A stretch of 64,000 nt of DNA from Pseudomonadota bacterium (GTDB lineage: Archaea; Thermoplasmatota; SW-10-69-26; JACQPN01; JAJPHT01): assembly GCA_021325135.1 (NCBI GenBank), contig JAJPHT010000006.1:18481-82480 (forward strand), given 5' to 3'. A program made the translations under genes and the position numbers. The notes under the pieces are model-generated. The model made no database searches. It worked only from the letters and a program-made list of their open reading frames with translations, and was not told the DNA's origin. Below are positions 1,088 to 42,965 of this stretch, one piece after another. Every line of letters begins with the position of its first letter. The stretch's first letter is position 1.

Positions 1088-1605
1088 AGTCCACGCCTGG
1101 CGCTCTCTTGGACGCCATGGTCGTGGCCCTCTTCGGCTCCTGGCTTCTCCTCACCATCCTCTGCCAGGTCCCGGGCAGGGCATCGTCCTACCTGCGCACG
1201 TGGGACTTCCTTGGCCTGATCCCCGAGTGGAACTTCTTCGCGCCCCACCCCAACACCGGGGATTACCACCTCCTCTACCGCGATCGGCTCCTTGATGGCA
1301 GCTTCACGGAGTGGACGGAGCTGCGCCAGAGCGAGTCGTACCGCTGGTGGCATGCCGTGTGGAACCCGGCCCGGAGGCGCAAGAAGGCGCTCTTCGACCT
1401 GACCGCCGCCTTGGCCCGGGAGATCCGCGAGGCGCCCGACACCCTCCAGGTCTCCATGGCCTACCTCTCTCTTCTGCAGCACGTCTCCAGCCTGGGTCGC
1501 CCAGAAGCGGTGGTGGGAACGCAGTTCATGATCATGCGCTCCCACGGGATGATCTCCACCCAAGAGCCGGACGTCATGATGGTCTCCGAGGTGCATGGGC
1601 TCTGA
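1084..1605 (+). CDS. LinL/CypL-like (SdpA-like) membrane-anchored protein
   Basis: N-terminal TM helix, then LIPEWNFFAPHPNTGDYHLLYRD and WNPARRRKKALFD motifs typical of partners of HTTM proteins. Confidence 0.7.
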   Translation: MKSTPGALLDAMVVALFGSWLLLTILCQVPGRASSYLRTWDFLGLIPEWNFFAPHPNTGDYHLLYRDRLLDGSFTEWTELRQSESYRWWHAVWNPARRRKKALFDLTAALAREIREAPDTLQVSMAYLSLLQHVSSLGRPEAVVGTQFMIMRSHGMISTQEPDVMMVSEVHGL

Positions 1606-2423
1606 ACCCCTTCTCGGACCCCCAGGTGGCGGTCGGCGCCGTGGAACGCCTCATCGCCGTCGCGGTGATCGTTTGCACCGCGGAGCTCCTGGCCCAGCCT
1701 CGCGTCCTGAGCGACGAAGGCCTCCTGGGGTGGGAGGTGGCGCGCCTTCGCCACGCATGGTTTGTCCACGGCCCCCTCTCCTGGATCATGGACGCCTGCT
1801 GCAGCTATCCGCGCGTGCTCGTCCTCCTCGGCGTCCGCCTCCTGCTCGCCCTTGCGCTCCTCGTGGGCGTGCCCCCGGGCTGGCCGCACGTCCTCCTGCT
1901 GGGCGCCCTGGCCTTGGTCTGGATGATCTCCTTTCTCCGCGTGCCCCAGGGGGCCGACGGGGCTGACCAGATGATCACCCTCGTGCTCGTCTCCCTCGCC
2001 ATCGCCGGCCTCGCCGCCATGATGGGCGCTCGCTTCGCCTGGAGCGTTGCCCTCGCCTTCGTCGCGCTCCAGGCCGTCGTCTCCTACGCCACGGCGGGCA
2101 TCGCGAAGGCGACCTCCTCGTCCTGGAGGAGCGGCGCGGCGCTCCCGGGCATCGCCGGCACCGACATGTACGGCAACAGGTCCGTGGCGCGTTTTCTCCA
2201 AGCCCGACCCAGGACGAGCCGATTCCTCGCGCGGGGCATCATCGTGTGGGAATGCTCCTTCGTCCTGGTCCTGCTCCTCCCCCTGCCGTGGGCGGTCCTC
2301 GTAGTGGCCAGCGGCGTCGCGTTCCACCTCCTGAGCGCCTTCGGGATGGGCCTCAACACCTTCCTGTGGGCATTCCTCGCCACCTACCCCGCCCTCTTCC
2401 ACGCCCTTGGCTTCCTTGGGTGA
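1602..2423 (+). CDS. HTTM-domain integral membrane protein, LinG/CypH-N-terminal or SdpB-like (probable CTG start; alternative GTG at 1626)
   Basis: Multiple TM helices; GADGADQM, ALQAVVSYATAGIAK, WRSGAALPGI and FHLLSAFGMGLNTFLWAFLATYPA motifs; GAGGTG SD upstream of the CTGA overlap. Confidence 0.75.
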   Translation: MNPFSDPQVAVGAVERLIAVAVIVCTAELLAQPRVLSDEGLLGWEVARLRHAWFVHGPLSWIMDACCSYPRVLVLLGVRLLLALALLVGVPPGWPHVLLLGALALVWMISFLRVPQGADGADQMITLVLVSLAIAGLAAMMGARFAWSVALAFVALQAVVSYATAGIAKATSSSWRSGAALPGIAGTDMYGNRSVARFLQARPRTSRFLARGIIVWECSFVLVLLLPLPWAVLVVASGVAFHLLSAFGMGLNTFLWAFLATYPALFHALGFLG

Positions 2424-2523
2424 CGCGAGCGCAAGCCGGCGCAGGTGGAGCCTGTCGACGTCGAACGCACGATGGTGCTCCGCGTTTTGTCGCGAGGCGG
2501 CGCCGTTTCACGGCGTTCCTAGC

Positions 2524-3333
2524 CTAGCTGGCCATCCACATCAGCGCCCCGCACCGCTCCTCGTGGCGCAGCTTCCCCTCCGTCTCCAGGGATAGCAATT
2601 TCTCGGTGGCCACGTCCTCCAGCCAGTCGCACGCCTCGGCGATCTCCGCCGTGGCGAGGCGGCCGTGGCGGCGCACGAGGTCCACGGGGTCGGGCGCGGG
2701 GGCGTCGACCCAGCGCGCGCCGCTGATGCGCGTGAGCGCGGCCTCGAACGCCTCGGTGGGCTGGAAGCCGGAGAGCGCGACCTCGACGCCGCGCGCGTTG
2801 CGGAAGACGACGGTGGGGAAGCCGGTGACGCCCTTGAGGCGCCCCTCGGCCTGGTCGCCGTAGAATTCCCGGGTGGCCTCGTCGGTCTCCATCGCCTCGC
2901 GGAAGCCCTGCGCGTCGACGCCGCAGGCCTTGGCGATCTCCTCCTGCACCTCCAGGGCCTCGATGTTGCGGCCGTCCATGAGGGAGGCCTCGCGCAGCGC
3001 GCGCAGGTAGCGCGGGAACGCCTCGGGCGAGACGAGGGCGGCGGCCTTGGCGGCGATGCCCGCGCGCACGGTGGTGCCGGGCCACGGCTTCAGCACGATG
3101 TCGGGGTCCAGGGGCATGCCGCTGGCGCGCCGCGCGGCGCTGAACATGCGGCGGATCTCCTCGCGGGGGAACTCGGGGCCCACGGGCGACTCGACGATGG
3201 CGCCCAGCTTCACGCGGAAGTCGATCCCCTCGCCGTGGCGCTCCTTGAGGCGCAGCAGCTGGGGCTCCAAAGCCCAGCACCACACGCTCCACGGGTCCGT
3301 GTAGTGCGTGACGACGACGGGATCGTGGCGCAT
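2524..3333 (-). CDS. DsbA/YjbH-like thioredoxin-fold protein with C-terminal winged helix
   Basis: YTDPWSVWCWALEP and GVTGFPT motifs; ATG at 3333. Confidence 0.8.
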   Translation of the reverse strand: MRHDPVVVTHYTDPWSVWCWALEPQLLRLKERHGEGIDFRVKLGAIVESPVGPEFPREEIRRMFSAARRASGMPLDPDIVLKPWPGTTVRAGIAAKAAALVSPEAFPRYLRALREASLMDGRNIEALEVQEEIAKACGVDAQGFREAMETDEATREFYGDQAEGRLKGVTGFPTVVFRNARGVEVALSGFQPTEAFEAALTRISGARWVDAPAPDPVDLVRRHGRLATAEIAEACDWLEDVATEKLLSLETEGKLRHEERCGALMWMAS

Positions 3334-38756: not shown

Positions 38757-40103
38757 TTGTCGCGCCACTCCATCCTCGCGGTCGCTCTCGTGCTCGTGGG
38801 CGCCGCCGTCGCGGGCTGCGTCTCGCAGACCCCCGCGGACGTCAAGCAGGCCTCGGCCTCGCTCCCGGACCTCACGAAGCCCGTCTTCGCCGCGACGAAG
38901 CTCCTGGACACCGTGCGCGCGGGCGGAGAGCCCGTCATCGCCATCACGCCCAAGGGGACCATCCTCGTGGGCGCGCACCCGGGCTGGACGCACACGCGCT
39001 ACCCGCCCTCGCCCAACCTCGTCGAGCCCGCCACGGGGCAGAGCTACATGTGGCGCAGCACCGACAACGGCACCACCTTCGCCCCCGTGGGCCTCCCCGG
39101 CGCCAACGGCGTGGGCCCCCGCGGCATCGGCCAGGGCGTCAGCGACCCCGACTTCGCCATCGACAAGAACGGGCGCATCTACTTCACCGACCTCGAAGGG
39201 CTCGCCAGCGCGTCCGTCTCGTGGAGCGACGACGACGGCCAGACGTGGCTCATGGGCAACGACGTGGCGGCGTCCTTCGGCGGCGGGCCCATCGACCGCA
39301 ACTGGCTCGCGGCGCAGGGCACGGACGTCTACTTCGAGGGCAACTACTTCCAGAACGGCGAGCAGATCCTCAAGTCCACCGACGGCGGCATCACCTGGAG
39401 CGTCGTGGGCCAGCCCCCCTGCGAGCAGCAGTTCGTCGTGCCCCAGCCCAAGACGATCCTCGTGGGCTGCCCCACCGGCATGGCGGTGAGCACGGACGAC
39501 GGCGCGCACTTCGAGCCGCGCCTGGTCCCCGGCGCCAAGGCCGAGAGCCGCGGCATGTCGCTCCCCGCCCTGGACGCCGCGGGCAACGTCTACGTCACGT
39601 GGGCCGCGGCGGACGGCATCTACGTCGCGGGCACCCGCGACCTGGGCAAGACCTGGAGCCACCCCATCAACCTCGCCAAGGCCGGCGGCCTCACCGGCAC
39701 CAACGTGTGGCCCTGGGTCGTGGCGGGCGACGCGGGCCGCGTCGCGGTGCTCTGGTACGGCACCAACGCCACGGGCGGCCCTGCCAACGCGACGGGCGAC
39801 TGGTTCGTCTACGAGGCCACCGTCCTCGATGCCATGAACGACACGGCGCAGGTGTCGGCCACGCAGGTCACGCCCAAGCCCATCTTCCAGGGGCACATCT
39901 GCCAGAACGGCACGACGTGCCAGGCCGACCCCTCCCCCGCGGGCGACCGCCGCCTGGGCGACTTCTTCGAGGCCGCCGTGGACGCGCAGGGCTACGTGCA
40001 CGTCGTCTACGCCGTGGCCCTGGGGGACAGCATCAGCCACCCCGGCTACAGCAAGCAGACGGGCGGCATCCCCCTGAAGGCGCCCTCGTCTGCCAACGGC
40101 TGA
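38757..40103 (+). CDS. BNR/Asp-box repeat (sialidase-like beta-propeller) lipoprotein
   Basis: Lipobox VAGC; repeated S-x-D-x-G-x-T-W/F boxes. Confidence 0.88.
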   Translation: MSRHSILAVALVLVGAAVAGCVSQTPADVKQASASLPDLTKPVFAATKLLDTVRAGGEPVIAITPKGTILVGAHPGWTHTRYPPSPNLVEPATGQSYMWRSTDNGTTFAPVGLPGANGVGPRGIGQGVSDPDFAIDKNGRIYFTDLEGLASASVSWSDDDGQTWLMGNDVAASFGGGPIDRNWLAAQGTDVYFEGNYFQNGEQILKSTDGGITWSVVGQPPCEQQFVVPQPKTILVGCPTGMAVSTDDGAHFEPRLVPGAKAESRGMSLPALDAAGNVYVTWAAADGIYVAGTRDLGKTWSHPINLAKAGGLTGTNVWPWVVAGDAGRVAVLWYGTNATGGPANATGDWFVYEATVLDAMNDTAQVSATQVTPKPIFQGHICQNGTTCQADPSPAGDRRLGDFFEAAVDAQGYVHVVYAVALGDSISHPGYSKQTGGIPLKAPSSANG

Positions 40104-40115
40104 CAAACATCCCAT

Positions 40116-40239
40116 CTTGGTGCGGGACGGAGACAGAGGGTTCGTTCCCGGCGGCTCCCGCAAGCCTCCAAGCCTCCCAACAGCCTCCGTTCTCTCACAG
40201 CCTCCTGTGGGTCGCCGGGATTCATTCTCCACCGCCAAG
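40116..40239. repeat. Structured repeat element, copy 1: hairpin enclosing four AGCCTCC units
   Basis: 33-nt core CAAGCCTCCAAGCCTCCCAACAGCCTCCGTTCT (40161-40193) identical to 41561-41593; closing stem CCCGGCGGCTCC/GGGTCGCCGGG. Confidence 0.85.
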
Positions 40240-40253
40240 CTCTCCAGCGACCG

Positions 40254-40260
40254 CTTTAAG
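40254..40260 (+). promoter_or_regulatory. TATA box (CTTTAAG) of the leaderless PAS-V4R gene
   Basis: 25 nt upstream of ATG 40285. Confidence 0.55.
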
Positions 40261-40284
40261 GCCCGTCCGGACAAAGCAGGGTGC

Positions 40285-41499
40285 ATGGTGGCGCCGCCGT
40301 CCTCGCCTCTCGACGAGCACGACCTCCATCGCATCGTCTTCGCGGCGCAGAGCGACCTGGGCGAAGGCATCCTCGTCGTCGACCGCACGCGCGTCGTGTA
40401 CGCCAACGACGCGTACTGCCGCATCGTGGGCCGCACGCGCGAGGAGGTCCAGGGGTTGGCCAGCCTCCTCGACATCGTCGTCCCCGAGGATCGCCAGGCG
40501 ATCTACGAGCGCGAGATGCGCCGCGGCCGGGGCGAGGACGTGCCCCTCTTCTACGAGACGACCATCGTGCGCCCTGACGGCACGCGCGTCCCCATCGAGA
40601 TCGGCCTGCGCCCCGCCGCGGGCGACGTGCCGGGGCGCTACGTGAGCGTCGTGCGCGACGTCACCTCGCGAAGGGCCAGCGAGGCCGCGCTGCGGGAGAC
40701 CGAGGAGCGCTTCCGCCGCGCCTTCAGCGACGCCGCGACGGGCATGGCCATCTACGACACCCAGGGGCGCTTCCAGCGCGTGAACCAGGCGCTCTGCGAC
40801 CTCCTGGGTTACAACGAGGAGGAGATGCTCAAGCTCACCTACCGCGAGGTCACGCACCCGGAGGACCTGGAGGCCCTCGTCGCGCTGGGCCGCCAGTTCA
40901 TCAGCGCCAGCGCGACGGACTCCGTGCGCTTCGAGCGCCGCTACCGGCGCAAGGACGGCGCCACCGTGTGGGCGCACGTCAACAGCAGCCCCATCCTGGA
41001 CGACCAGAAGAGGACCCTCTACTACGTGACGCACATCTTCGACATCTCCGCGCGCAAGGCCGCGGAGGACCTCACGCGCAAGGACCAGGTGAGCCGCCGC
41101 GTCGTGCGCCACATCCTGCGCGACATCTCGGACCGGCCCTCGACGAGCACCGCGATCCGCCGCGACCTGGGCCGCAGCCTCGCGGGCGAGACGTCCGAGG
41201 AGACGATCAAGGGGTGCCTGGACTTCTTCGGCTCCCTGGGGATCGGCGCCCTGGAGGTGGAGAGCGGCGAAGGGGACCGCTACTCCATCCGGGGGCGGGA
41301 CCTCCTGGAGATGACGCCCGGGGCCGGGGTCCCCACGTGCCACATCGCCTTGGGCTTCCTGGAGGGGTGCGTCGCCCGGCTCCACGGCGGGAACGCCCTG
41401 GGCGCCGAGTTGTCCTGCCAGAGCACGGGGCAGGAGGCGTGCCGGTTCGTGGTCCACGCCCGGGCCGCCCCTGGGGAGAAGTTGTCTGGTCGATCCTGA
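40285..41499 (+). CDS. PAS-PAS-V4R sensor protein
   Basis: Two PAS/PAC domains (YANDAYC..GR, VNQALCDLLGY..THPED, RKDG..W); C-terminal V4R with CH..GFLEG...C..G...CRF. Confidence 0.88.
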   Translation: MVAPPSSPLDEHDLHRIVFAAQSDLGEGILVVDRTRVVYANDAYCRIVGRTREEVQGLASLLDIVVPEDRQAIYEREMRRGRGEDVPLFYETTIVRPDGTRVPIEIGLRPAAGDVPGRYVSVVRDVTSRRASEAALRETEERFRRAFSDAATGMAIYDTQGRFQRVNQALCDLLGYNEEEMLKLTYREVTHPEDLEALVALGRQFISASATDSVRFERRYRRKDGATVWAHVNSSPILDDQKRTLYYVTHIFDISARKAAEDLTRKDQVSRRVVRHILRDISDRPSTSTAIRRDLGRSLAGETSEETIKGCLDFFGSLGIGALEVESGEGDRYSIRGRDLLEMTPGAGVPTCHIALGFLEGCVARLHGGNALGAELSCQSTGQEACRFVVHARAAPGEKLSGRS

Positions 41500-41528
41500 C
41501 AAGCATCGTACCATGCCCGCCGGCGCCC

Positions 41529-41639
41529 CCTGGAGGGATGGAGAACCCGGCGGCTTCCGACAAGCCTCCAAGCCTCCCAACAGCCTCCGTTCTACAGCCT
41601 CCCAACAGACGGAGCCGCCGGGTTTGCTCTCCACCAAGG
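41529..41639. repeat. Structured repeat element, copy 2: hairpin enclosing four AGCCTCC units
   Basis: Stem AACCCGGCGGCTTCC/GGAGCCGCCGGGTT; core identical to copy 1, exactly 1400 bp away. Confidence 0.85.
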
Positions 41640-41739
41640 TCTTCCGAACGCCCGCGGGCTTCCGCGGGACTCCTTCTCCATAGACCTACGGAGAATCCAA
41701 CGCGATGCTCCATAGGCTCCGGACGACAAAGCTGGGGCG

Positions 41740-42396
41740 ATGATGAACCGAACCATGGACCCGACCCTGGAGGTCGCGGTCAAGACGGCCGGACCTGCGG
41801 GCCGGCCCCCCCGCCCCAACCTGCGCATCGCGGTGGACTTCGACGGAGTCCTCTTCGACCACATCCCCTACCTCCTGCGCGGCTTCCGCGACGCGCACGG
41901 CATCGACCTGGCCGCGGAGGGGCTGCGCCACTGGGACTTCTTCCAGTACCGCGCCGTCCGCGAGCGCAACCTGAGCTGGAACGCCGTGAAGACGGTCCTG
42001 GAGCGCATCGACCAGGACCCCGTGCTGCACGACTGCGACGCGCGCGACCCCGACGCGGCCGACGTGATCGCCTCCTGGCGCGCGCAGGGGCACCAGGTCA
42101 GCGTCGTCACGGCGCGCGAGCCCGGAGCCCGCGCCACCACCGAGGCGTTCCTCGCCCGCAACGGCATCCGCGTGGACGAGGTCGTCATGGGCGCGCGCCT
42201 CAAGACGGGCTACGACGTGCTCGTCGACGACGCGCCGCACAACGTCCTCATGGCGGCGGCCGACGGCGGCCTGGCCCTCCTCATGGACCACCCCTACAAC
42301 CGCGACGTGCCCAGCAAGAGGAACCCGCTGCGCGTGCGCCGCTGGCGCGAGATCGAGCCCATCGTCGCGGGCCTCGCCCTGGAGGCCGCCGCGTGA
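41740..42396 (+). CDS. HAD-family 5'(3')-deoxyribonucleotidase-like (NT5C type)
   Basis: IAVDFDGV, VVTAR, LVDDAPHN, HPYN. Confidence 0.85.
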   Translation: MMNRTMDPTLEVAVKTAGPAGRPPRPNLRIAVDFDGVLFDHIPYLLRGFRDAHGIDLAAEGLRHWDFFQYRAVRERNLSWNAVKTVLERIDQDPVLHDCDARDPDAADVIASWRAQGHQVSVVTAREPGARATTEAFLARNGIRVDEVVMGARLKTGYDVLVDDAPHNVLMAAADGGLALLMDHPYNRDVPSKRNPLRVRRWREIEPIVAGLALEAAA

Positions 42397-42674
42397 GCGC
42401 CTGGTGGGCCTACGCGGGCGCGGCGCTCCTTGTGGCCGCGACCCTCCCCCAGGCGGCCCGCCTCGTGCGGACGCGCCGCGCCGACGACCTCACGTGGGGG
42501 TTCGTGGCCTTGAACGCCGGGGGCATCGCGCTCCTGGGCCTGCGCAGCGCGGAGATCGGCGAGTGGGGGTTCGTCGCGGTGAACGCCAGCACGGCGGCCT
42601 TCTGGCTGCTGGTGGCAGGAATCAAGGCGTGGCCCCACGCCACAGAGAAGAGAAGTGCGGGTGTCGAGATTTGA
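42393..42674 (+). CDS. PQ-loop/SemiSWEET-like small membrane transporter
   Basis: TLPQAARLVRTRRADDLT; three TM segments; GTGA overlap. Confidence 0.8.
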   Translation: MSAWWAYAGAALLVAATLPQAARLVRTRRADDLTWGFVALNAGGIALLGLRSAEIGEWGFVAVNASTAAFWLLVAGIKAWPHATEKRSAGVEI

Positions 42675-42729
42675 ACTCGAGCAGCAACGTTGGCAACGTT
42701 GTGTACTAGCCAGGCTATACTACACCCGC
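42656..42729 (-). tRNA. tRNA-Gly(GCC)
   Basis: GCGGGTG/CACCCGC acceptor stem; anticodon arm CAACG-TTGCCAA-CGTTG; T-arm TCGAG-TTCAAAT-CTCGA; CCA not encoded. Confidence 0.95.
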
Positions 42730-42862
42730 GGATGCGAGCCCCCCTCAGGAAGGGTGGCAACCCTCGAATGCAGAACCCCTATTTGACGATTTCTTGGGCC
42801 AGAACGAGGCCCCTCCCGCGCGCCACGCGGCTTCATGCCGGGCACCCTCCATCGTGCATCCC

Positions 42863-42947
42863 GCAGGAGTACTCAAGCCCGGCCAACGAGGCGCGACTTA
42901 AGATCGTGTCCTGAAGAGGTTCCCCGGTTCGAATCCGGGCTCCTGCA
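42863..42947 (+). tRNA. tRNA-Leu(TAA)
   Basis: GCAGGAG/CTCCTGC acceptor stem; anticodon arm CGCGA-CTTAAGA-TCGTG; long variable arm; GGTTCGAATCC. Confidence 0.95.
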
Positions 42948-42965
42948 CTCGCGCGCCAGCGCGAG

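What the first reader, a model, noticed from the sequence alone, without database searches (positions are those of the whole stretch)
40116..41639. Duplicated structured element with iterated AGCCTCC (anti-SD on +, GGAGG on -) flanking a PAS-V4R gene
Seen: two 110-125-nt direct repeats 1400 bp apart with an identical 33-nt core. Each is closed by a GC stem whose sequence differs between copies while pairing is kept, and each loop has four AGCCTCC units. On the + strand these display CCUCC (anti-Shine-Dalgarno); on the - strand they give repeated GGAGG, reminiscent of CsrB/RsmZ-type protein-sponge RNAs. Inference: a new ncRNA family or miniature mobile element. The pair might also have mobilised the enclosed gene as a cassette.
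Basis: partly seen in the sequence, partly recalled or inferred. Interest (0 to 1): 0.7.

Follow-up and report, generated by a model that had tools for sequence, protein, structure and literature searches.

The report
Archaeal small RNAs with CCUCC-repeat loops
The two repeats are real, and they are two copies of an undescribed family of small non-coding RNA genes found in one class of uncultured soil archaea (Thermoplasmatota); each holds several copies of the ribosome's own mRNA-docking sequence (CCUCC) in an open loop, so it probably controls translation, though nothing has been tested.

Summary
There are two about 90-nt hairpin elements, at 40146-40235 and 41545-41640 on the + strand, exactly 1400 nt apart. 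They share a 33-nt identical core and each has four AGCCTCC units in a loop closed by a GC stem.

They are not a local oddity. A covariance model finds the same architecture in 18 of 21 genomes of this Thermoplasmatota class, at 2-8 copies each, and in essentially none of 130 other genomes of the phylum.
- All 12 stem pairs show compensatory changes (94.5% paired; 36-54% when the partner is slid).
- The heptad AGCCUCC in the loop is conserved.
- Copies are intergenic and lie in every orientation relative to their neighbours.
- Many have a BRE/TATA upstream, and all end in the pyrimidine tract that also follows this genome's tRNA genes.

I read them as stand-alone small RNA genes transcribed on the CCUCC strand. 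They most likely mask GGAGG Shine-Dalgarno sites; the mechanism is inferred.

The minus-strand CsrB-like reading fails: the organism is an archaeon, no CsrA was found, and the strand evidence points the other way. The cassette idea fails too. A sister species has both copies side by side with no PAS-V4R gene between them.

No Rfam family matches.

The parts
38757..40103 (+). Upstream gene: BNR/Asp-box repeat protein. Its stop codon lies 43 nt before stem A.
   Evidence: Pfam PF02012. GC3 0.98. An ortholog flanks element a in G002.
40086..40120 (+). Conserved upstream block of copy A (TCGTCTG-N10-GACAAACATCCCATC). Putative operator plus weak BRE/TATA of the sRNA gene.
   Evidence: GTCTG, ACAA and CATC are invariant in all four A/B-type copies of G000 and G002. 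The promoter role is inferred.
40146..40235 (+). sRNA copy A. 5' stem arm 40146-40155. Loop 40156-40210 with AGCCUCC at 40163, 40171, 40182 and 40199. 3' stem arm 40211-40220. Pyrimidine tail 40221-40235.
   Evidence: Covariance model R2: 84.8 bits, E 3.5e-16. Folds.
40255..40261 (+). TATA box (TTTAAGG) of the PAS-V4R gene, about 28 nt before its ATG. This implies a leaderless mRNA separate from the sRNA.
   Evidence: Sequence. The same TTTAAGG / AAATAGGGG boxes lie upstream of this genome's tRNA genes.
40285..41499 (+). PAS-PAS-V4R protein gene (404 aa), lying between the two sRNA genes. Its last codons overlap the conserved upstream block of copy B.
   Evidence: Pfam PAS_9 1e-30 and V4R 1e-9. 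No close ortholog in the genus: best match 43% identity, at another locus.
41482..41518 (+). Conserved upstream block of copy B (TTGTCTG-N10-GACAAGCATCGTACCATGCC). Putative operator plus TATA-like TACCATG.
   Evidence: TTCATG-type boxes occur upstream of several tRNA genes. The role is inferred.
41545..41640 (+). sRNA copy B. 5' stem arm 41545-41554. Loop 41555-41613 with AGCCUCC at 41563, 41571, 41582 and 41596. 3' stem arm 41614-41623. Pyrimidine tail 41624-41640.
   Evidence: R2: 82.6 bits, E 1.1e-15. Fold. Ortholog is G002 element b.
41740..42396 (+). Downstream gene: NT5C/HAD-type 5'-nucleotidase, with a TATA-like CATAGG at 41711-41716.
   Evidence: Pfam PF06941. Orthologs in other species lack an upstream element.

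Best explanation
Each repeat is a stand-alone gene for a small structured RNA of roughly 100-140 nt, transcribed on the + (CCUCC) strand. The RNA is a hairpin. A GC-rich stem of about 10-15 bp, free to change sequence as long as it pairs, holds open a C/A-rich loop of 50-60 nt. The loop displays two to six copies of the heptad AGCCUCC. A pyrimidine tract (CUUUCCUCC-like) after the stem ends the transcript. The CCUCC core is identical to the anti-Shine-Dalgarno core at the 3' end of this lineage's 16S rRNA (...GGAUCACCUCCU). The most likely mechanism is therefore that the open loop pairs with GGAGG(CU) ribosome-binding sites of SD-led mRNAs and blocks (or modulates) translation initiation, with several sites per RNA. 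The two window copies are an old tandem pair of such genes. The PAS-V4R gene lies between them, by insertion in this species or by loss in the sister species. Shown here: the family, the structure, the intergenic stand-alone position and the phyletic range. Inferred: the transcribed strand (strong indirect evidence), the RNA ends and the target mechanism. The confidence of 0.5 is for the whole statement including the mechanism. Taken separately, I put a real structured RNA family at about 0.9 and the CCUCC strand at about 0.8.
For: 1. Family. Model R2 hits 18 of 21 genomes of the class at E<=0.01, with 2-8 copies each. Outside the class, 1 of 130 genomes of the phylum hit at E<=0.001, and that hit looks spurious. 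The own genome has four or more copies: A, B, C48:6896-6991 and C24:101122-101200 (32.3 bits).
2. Structure. On 36 sequences all 12 stem pairs have compensatory changes, and 94.5% of cells are paired against 36-54% for slid partners; 0/500 shuffles reach the covariation score. The orthologous C48-type copy keeps about 40 loop nucleotides identical in five species while its stem changes.
3. Motif. Across 107 CCUCC units, the -2 position is A in 84% and the -1 position is G in 89%. The loop is 46% C and 15% G, so it cannot pair with itself.
4. Stand-alone. 33 of 35 copies do not overlap a supported ORF. The downstream gene is on the opposite strand in 17 of 29 cases with called genes on both sides, and the upstream gene in 10 of 29.
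5. Strand. BRE/TATA boxes (gCAAAaCTTAAGg) lie 30-50 nt upstream in family f6 copies. TATA-like matches number 9/34 upstream against 2/34 at the mirror position. The 15 nt after the stem are 83% pyrimidine, against 53% on the other strand, and resemble the tracts after this genome's tRNA genes. There are 30 G.U against 9 A.C cells in the stem.
6. Plausible targets exist. The 16S rRNA 3' end in relatives is GGAUCACCUCCU. GGAGG peaks at -15 to -11 before ATG, and about 10% of crude gene starts are SD-led (238 of 2252).
7. Precedent. M. mazei sRNA41 and sRNA154 mask ribosome-binding sites (PMC5867862). Cuckoo RNAs carry CCUCCUCCC loops on variable, covarying stems (PMC4615179).
Against: - There are no expression data of any kind, so transcription, strand and ends are inferred.
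- The window copies A and B have no canonical TATA box, only a conserved block. They lie 43-46 nt after same-strand stop codons, so they could be transcribed by read-through.
- The strongly conserved AG before CCUCC is not needed to mimic the anti-SD (the 16S rRNA has CA-CCUCC).
- GGAGGCU is only about twofold enriched among SD-led starts (24 of 238). That gives no clear regulon and leaves room for a protein partner.
- The covariation counts were made on alignments fitted to the model, which favours the model's structure and G.U over A.C.
- Gene calls are crude (GC3-based).
- All genomes are MAGs.
Confidence: 0.5

Rival explanations
1. A protein-titrating (sponge or scaffold) RNA on the + strand. 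The iterated heptad AGCCUCC, spaced 8-14 nt apart in one open loop, is a multivalent binding platform for an RNA-binding protein. One candidate is a protein that normally recognises the CCUCC-containing 3' end of 16S rRNA.
For: The conserved unit is 7 nt (A 84%, G 89% before CCUCC), and spacings cluster at 8, 9, 11 and 14 nt. There are 2-6 units per loop. GGAGGCU is not clearly enriched at SD sites. Multivalent repeats in unpaired regions are the hallmark of known sponge RNAs (own knowledge).
Against: No candidate protein was identified, and no gene is consistently linked to the element. CsrA was not found. C-rich loop sRNAs with known function act by base pairing.
Confidence: 0.2
2. A cis-acting element of the flanking genes: a 3'-UTR stabiliser or terminator hairpin of the upstream gene, or a 5' leader of the downstream gene.
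For: A and B follow same-strand stop codons by 43-46 nt. The upstream gene is co-directional in about two thirds of copies. The tail looks like a terminator.
Against: 10 of 29 copies lie downstream of a divergent gene, and 17 of 29 face a convergent one. Many copies have their own BRE/TATA. The PAS-V4R gene has its own TATA and is leaderless. NT5C orthologs in other species lack the element. A plain terminator does not explain a conserved loop heptad.
Confidence: 0.1
3. A minus-strand RNA displaying GGAGG repeats: a CsrB/RsmZ-like or ribosome-sponge RNA.
For: The reverse complement also folds (z -2.2 for copy B), and the model gives weak hits on the - strand because the stems are near-palindromic.
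Against: The organism is archaeal. No CsrA was found. There are 30 G.U against 9 A.C cells. The promoter-like and terminator-like signals are on the + strand.
Confidence: 0.05
4. A mobile or recombination element: a MITE, or attC-like cassette boundaries that moved the PAS-V4R gene.
For: Direct repeats flank a gene that is absent from the syntenic site in G002. Element positions differ between species.
Against: The arms vary and the loop is conserved, the reverse of terminal inverted repeats. Copy number is low. G002 keeps both copies without the gene. No GTTRRRY-type attC core is visible in the arms (by inspection). No target-site duplication is visible.
Confidence: 0.03
5. A tiny protein-coding gene. 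The loop of the C48-type copy reads ATG plus 13 conserved codons (MATASQPPSNSLP...).
For: The ATG and frame are kept in five species (earlier first-reader note e1-5622444).
Against: Stop positions differ (14 to about 37 codons). There is no synonymous change in 39 nt across species whose NT5C proteins are only 80% identical. Copies A and B have no ATG, and their cores are read in different frames. There is no SD, and the ATG is not at a 5' end.
Confidence: 0.02

Closest known systems
Cuckoo RNAs (RSs0680a-d/CcsR1-4, SmelC397 and relatives) of Alphaproteobacteria (PMC4615179)
   Same: Multi-copy, often tandem, intergenic small RNAs. The only conserved sequence is an anti-SD-like C-rich loop motif. 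The stems are dominated by compensatory mutations. Genomic neighbourhoods vary.
   Different: Cuckoo RNAs are bacterial. They have 2-4 adjacent hairpins with one CCUCCUCCC per loop. Here there is one hairpin with 2-6 AGCCUCC heptads in a single large loop, archaeal promoter and terminator signals, and no sequence homology or Rfam match.
Methanosarcina mazei sRNA41 and sRNA154 (review PMC5867862; Buddeweg et al. 2018, doi 10.1111/mmi.13900, not read here)
   Same: Archaeal intergenic sRNAs whose loop sequences are complementary to ribosome-binding sites and repress translation of SD-led (internal operon) genes.
   Different: Those have experimentally shown targets, and they belong to a different phylum with different sequence and fold. 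The Thermoplasmatota family has iterated motifs and no known target.
RsaE/RoxS and other C-rich-loop sRNAs of Bacillota (own knowledge)
   Same: Several unpaired C-rich motifs that pair with G-rich SD regions.
   Different: They are bacterial, with UCCC/CCCC motifs spread over several loops and linkers. They are unrelated in sequence.
CsrB/RsmZ protein-sponge RNAs
   Same: Many copies of a short motif displayed in unpaired regions of one RNA.
   Different: Their motif is GGA on the transcribed strand and they need CsrA. Here the transcribed strand carries CCUCC and CsrA was not found.

Membership tests
Stand-alone archaeal small RNA gene | Intergenic position, independent of neighbour orientation | tested here: met
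   33 of 35 copies do not overlap a supported ORF, and all four neighbour orientations occur. Gene calls are crude.
Stand-alone archaeal small RNA gene | Own BRE/TATA promoter upstream on the RNA's strand | tested here: inconclusive
   Clear gCAAAaCTTAAGg boxes occur in family f6 copies, with 9/34 upstream against 2/34 at the mirror position. The window copies have only a conserved non-canonical block.
Stand-alone archaeal small RNA gene | Conserved secondary structure supported by covariation | tested here: met
   12 of 12 pairs have compensatory changes, and 94.5% of cells are paired against 36-54% when slid.
Stand-alone archaeal small RNA gene | A discrete transcript is detected | not testable with these tools
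   No RNA-seq data are available here.
Anti-SD (RBS-masking) sRNAs (sRNA41/sRNA154, cuckoo, RsaE type) | Unpaired motif complementary to the organism's SD | tested here: met
   The loop CCUCC matches the core of the 16S rRNA 3' end GGAUCACCUCCU. GGAGG peaks at -15 to -11 before starts. The loop is predicted to be open.
Anti-SD (RBS-masking) sRNAs (sRNA41/sRNA154, cuckoo, RsaE type) | Demonstrated pairing with, and regulation of, target mRNAs | not testable with these tools
   Only motif counts were possible: GGAGGCU occurs at 24 of 238 SD-led starts.
Cuckoo RNA family | 2-4 adjacent hairpins, each with CCUCCUCCC in the loop | tested here: not met
   A single hairpin, the heptad AGCCUCC, and no CCUCCUCCC. 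No Rfam hit.
CsrB/RsmZ sponge RNAs | GGA motifs on the transcribed strand, and CsrA encoded in the genome | tested here: not met
   PF02599 has no hit in the 94%-complete genome. Strand evidence favours the CCUCC strand.
MITE / mobile element | Conserved terminal inverted repeats, target-site duplication, many near-identical copies | tested here: not met
   The arms vary and the loop is conserved. There are about 4-5 copies per genome.
Integron attC site | R''/R' core sites (RYYYAAC/GTTRRRY) and a linked integrase | tested here: not met
   No such core is visible in the arms by inspection. The integrase was not searched for.

The most novel reading that the evidence does not exclude
The RNA is not an mRNA-pairing regulator. 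It is an archaeal sponge RNA whose iterated AGCCUCC heptads titrate a protein that reads the CCUCC-bearing 3' end of 16S rRNA (a small-subunit biogenesis or initiation factor of the KH/PIN type). That would couple ribosome maturation or initiation capacity to a signal sensed at the conserved TTGTC-N12-GACAA operator-like site upstream. It would be an archaeal functional counterpart of Csr/Rsm with a different motif and partner.
Probability: 0.12. Interest if true: 0.8.

Novelty: new member of a known kind. Interest (0 to 1): 0.5.

Why it matters
Regulatory small RNAs of archaea are known in detail from only a few cultured models, and I found none described for Thermoplasmatota in the searches I could run. 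This family is well defined, with a covariance model, about 35 members and clear covariation. It is restricted to one uncultured soil and groundwater class. It displays the ribosome's own docking sequence several times per molecule. That offers a concrete handle on how archaea that mix leaderless and SD-led mRNAs might tune the SD-led subset. It is also a ready candidate for an Rfam entry and for metatranscriptome checks. Finally, it removes a false lead: the PAS-V4R gene is not a cassette bounded by mobile repeats.

Tried and rejected
- Rfam at gathering threshold on the window and at E<=1 on five copies: only tRNA and chance miRNA hits.
- MAFFT alone misaligned the stems. I therefore built a model from the five A/B-type copies (R1) and iterated to R2.
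- Pairing of a purine-rich 5' flank with the pyrimidine tail looked convincing in a few copies (for example G017:C3) but is not general: mean z -0.24, and 8 of 34 with z<-1.
- An exact 18-mer scan of metagenome contigs gave 23 stretches, of which only one is a family member. The single hit outside the class (G037) is a low-GC coding-like stretch without heptads.
- A complement search for extended targets (GGAGGCTGTTGG and similar) gave mostly chance hits. The best, an 11-nt match before a 61-codon ORF on C40, is within chance expectation.
- No GGAGGCU was found in the 16S rRNA of relatives; the one match found lies outside the 16S gene.
- By inspection I found no K-turn, H/ACA, C/D-box or bulge-helix-bulge features conserved across copies.
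- The sigma-70 promoter scan was not used, because the organism is an archaeon.

Full report
**What is in the window**

The stretch 40104-40284 and the stretch 41500-41739 are the two intergenic regions on either side of a PAS-PAS-V4R gene (40285-41499; Pfam). All three local genes are on the + strand: BNR-repeat protein 38757-40103, PAS-V4R, and NT5C/HAD nucleotidase 41740-42396.

Each intergenic region holds a hairpin.
- Copy A has stem arms at 40146-40155 and 40211-40220.
- Copy B has stem arms at 41545-41554 and 41614-41623.
- Each closes a 55-59-nt loop with four AGCCTCC units.
- The two copies share a 33-nt identical core and are exactly 1400 nt apart.
- The similarity begins about 60 nt upstream of the stem, with an invariant block TTGTCTG-N10-ACAAnCATC.

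It slightly understates the length of the repeat and slightly overstates the local covariation, which amounts to one compensated pair and one G.U/G-C difference.

**The organism**

The window is part of a 3.77-Mb, 71.6% G+C metagenome-assembled genome (94% complete).
- It encodes an archaeal SRP RNA above Rfam's cut-off.
- The closest relatives of its NT5C gene are records titled Thermoplasmata/Thermoplasmatota archaeon.
- Its tRNA genes are preceded by AAATAGGGG / TTTAAGG / TTCATG boxes and followed by TTCTCTCC-like pyrimidine tracts.
- The PAS-V4R gene has TTTAAGG 28 nt before its ATG, as expected for a leaderless archaeal mRNA.

**It is a family**

A simple pattern (three AGCCTCC within short spacers) hit all four other genomes of the genus and all six genomes of another family of the class, with 0-1 hits for the reversed control pattern. 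I built a covariance model from the five A/B-type copies (R1), realigned the hits and rebuilt it (R2).
- R2 finds 2-8 copies in 18 of 21 genomes of the class at E<=0.01.
- At E<=0.001 it finds 15 of the 20 other class genomes but only 1 of 130 genomes elsewhere in the phylum. That one lacks the heptads and looks spurious.
- The own genome has copies A and B, C48:6896-6991 and C24:101122-101200 (32.3 bits). A divergent candidate lies at C24:66635-66692.
- Only one of 23 metagenome contigs carrying an 18-nt loop word is a member, so the family is narrow.
- Rfam has no match.

**Structure**

On 36 aligned sequences, all 12 pairs of the closing stem show changes on both sides. Of all cells, 94.5% are standard pairs, against 36-54% when the 3' partner is slid by 1-3 columns, and no shuffle of 500 reaches the observed covariation score (the 11-sequence set gives the same picture). 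These alignments were fitted to the model, which favours its structure. The raw sequences nevertheless show the point directly: stems such as TCGCCCGCGCCCCC/GGGGGCGCGGGCGA, ACGAAGGCAGCC/GGCTGCCTTCGT and GAGGGAGTCGCCG/CGGCGGCTCCCTC all close the same kind of loop.

The loop is 46% C and only 15% G, so it is predicted to be open. Across 107 CCUCC units, the two preceding bases are A (84%) and G (89%), and the following bases tend to be C and A. Spacings cluster at 8, 9, 11 and 14 nt. An orthologous copy (C48-type) keeps about 40 loop nucleotides identical in five species while its stem changes. A suggested outer helix between a purine-rich 5' flank and the tail holds in some copies only.

**Which strand, and is it a separate gene?**

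Four independent indications favour the CCUCC strand.
1. In family f6 and several other copies, a BRE/TATA-like gCAAAaCTTAAGg lies 30-50 nt upstream. A strict TATA pattern is found upstream in 9 of 34 copies, against 2 of 34 at the mirror position.
2. The 15 nt after the stem are 83% pyrimidine, against 53% on the other strand. They look like the tracts after the genome's tRNA genes.
3. The stem has 30 G.U cells against 9 A.C cells.
4. The C48 copy folds significantly better than shuffles on this strand only (z -3.4 against -1.0).

Copies are intergenic (33 of 35). Their neighbours are in all orientations: among the 29 copies with a called gene on both sides, the downstream gene is on the opposite strand in 17 and the upstream gene in 10. 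So the element is neither a leader nor a 3' UTR of a particular gene. NT5C orthologs of other species have no element upstream.

For the two window copies the promoter is less clear. They have the conserved block but no canonical TATA, and they follow same-strand stop codons, so read-through transcription cannot be excluded.

**The cassette idea**

In the sister species G002 (JAXDQU01) the syntenic locus reads: BNR gene, element a, a 200-nt palindromic spacer, element b, NT5C gene. There is no PAS-V4R gene, and a and b align with A and B including the upstream blocks. No close ortholog of this PAS-V4R protein exists in the genus: the best match is 43% identity, at another locus, and the protein belongs to a paralogous family with seven matches in G000. 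The tandem pair therefore predates the difference. The gene was either inserted between two existing sRNA genes or lost from between them. Its last codons overlap the upstream block of copy B.

**How it most likely works**

The 16S rRNA of six relatives ends in GGAUCACCUCCU. In G000, GGAGG peaks 11-15 nt before ATG codons, and about 10% of crude gene starts are SD-led (238 of 2252). An RNA that holds several CCUCC in an open loop can pair with such sites and compete with the 30S subunit. This is the mechanism proposed for M. mazei sRNA41 and sRNA154 (PMC5867862) and suggested for the cuckoo RNAs, which share the combination of a conserved C-rich loop motif and covarying stems (PMC4615179).

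My estimates:
- about 0.9 that this is a real structured RNA family;
- about 0.8 that it is made from the CCUCC strand;
- about 0.45-0.5 that it acts by masking SD sites.

The main reservation is the conserved AG before CCUCC. The anti-SD does not have it, and GGAGGCU is only about twofold enriched at SD-led starts (24 of 238). A multivalent protein-binding platform is the best rival.

The CsrB-like minus-strand idea fails on domain, on the absence of a CsrA hit and on strand evidence. A small-ORF reading of the C48 copy fails because stop positions differ and there is no synonymous variation.

**Relation to earlier notes of this scan**

Comparable CCUCC-loop small RNAs were reported by other agents in Asgard archaea. 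I used those notes as leads only. None of them concerns the Thermoplasmatota family as a whole.

**Verdict**

It is an undescribed, class-restricted archaeal small-RNA family of a known general kind (anti-SD-loop sRNAs). Function is inferred, not shown. It is not mobile and not a cassette boundary.

Noticed in passing
window 40086-40106 and 41482-41502; L049:~357-385 and ~655-680: An invariant TTGTC(TG)-N10-12-GACAA inverted repeat lies just upstream of the A/B-type sRNA copies in G000 and G002. It looks like an operator for a dimeric transcription factor. In G000 it overlaps the last codons of the PAS-V4R gene.
   Followed up: partly
L049:~545-650 (G002:C61): The spacer between the two elements in the sister species is a long near-perfect palindrome (CCGAGCCCGATTCCGATTCCTCTTCCGAGCCCGGC ... 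GCCGGGCTCGGAAGAGGAATCGGAATCGG). It occupies the place of the PAS-V4R gene.
   Followed up: no
G000:C48:6992-8468 (L047:~1600-3070): About 1.5 kb downstream of the C48 sRNA copy has no ORF with the genome's codon-position GC signature and no Rfam match. It may be non-coding, or a poorly scoring gene.
   Followed up: partly
G000:C24:101122-101200 (+) and C24:66635-66692 (-): Two further, more divergent copies of the family in the same genome. The first scores 32.3 bits with R2 and has a TATA-like GATATCGGGG upstream and a GTTTTCTCC tail. The second was seen only as a heptad cluster.
   Followed up: partly
G000 genome-wide (for example C21, C22, C33, C15): A recurrent translation-initiation region GGAGGCTTCCC(C)ATG is shared by several SD-led genes. 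It is fully complementary to the sRNA heptad.
   Followed up: no
G000 tRNA flanks genome-wide; window 42655-42948: tRNA genes show a lineage-specific promoter box AAATAGGGG / TTTAAGG / TTCATG 30-40 nt upstream and pyrimidine-rich (TTCTCTCC) 3' flanks. These are useful as promoter and terminator references for this uncultured class.
   Followed up: partly
L021 (G013:C308:12639-12735): A 15-nt tandem repeat, AGCCTCCGGTCGAGG, with at least seven copies matched the heptad pattern. It is unrelated to the sRNA family and is probably a coding repeat.
   Followed up: no
L049:3-356 (G002:C61 start): The 3' part of the BNR gene matches on both strands at the contig start (3-125 minus, 120-356 plus). This looks like an assembly fold-back artefact.
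   Followed up: no
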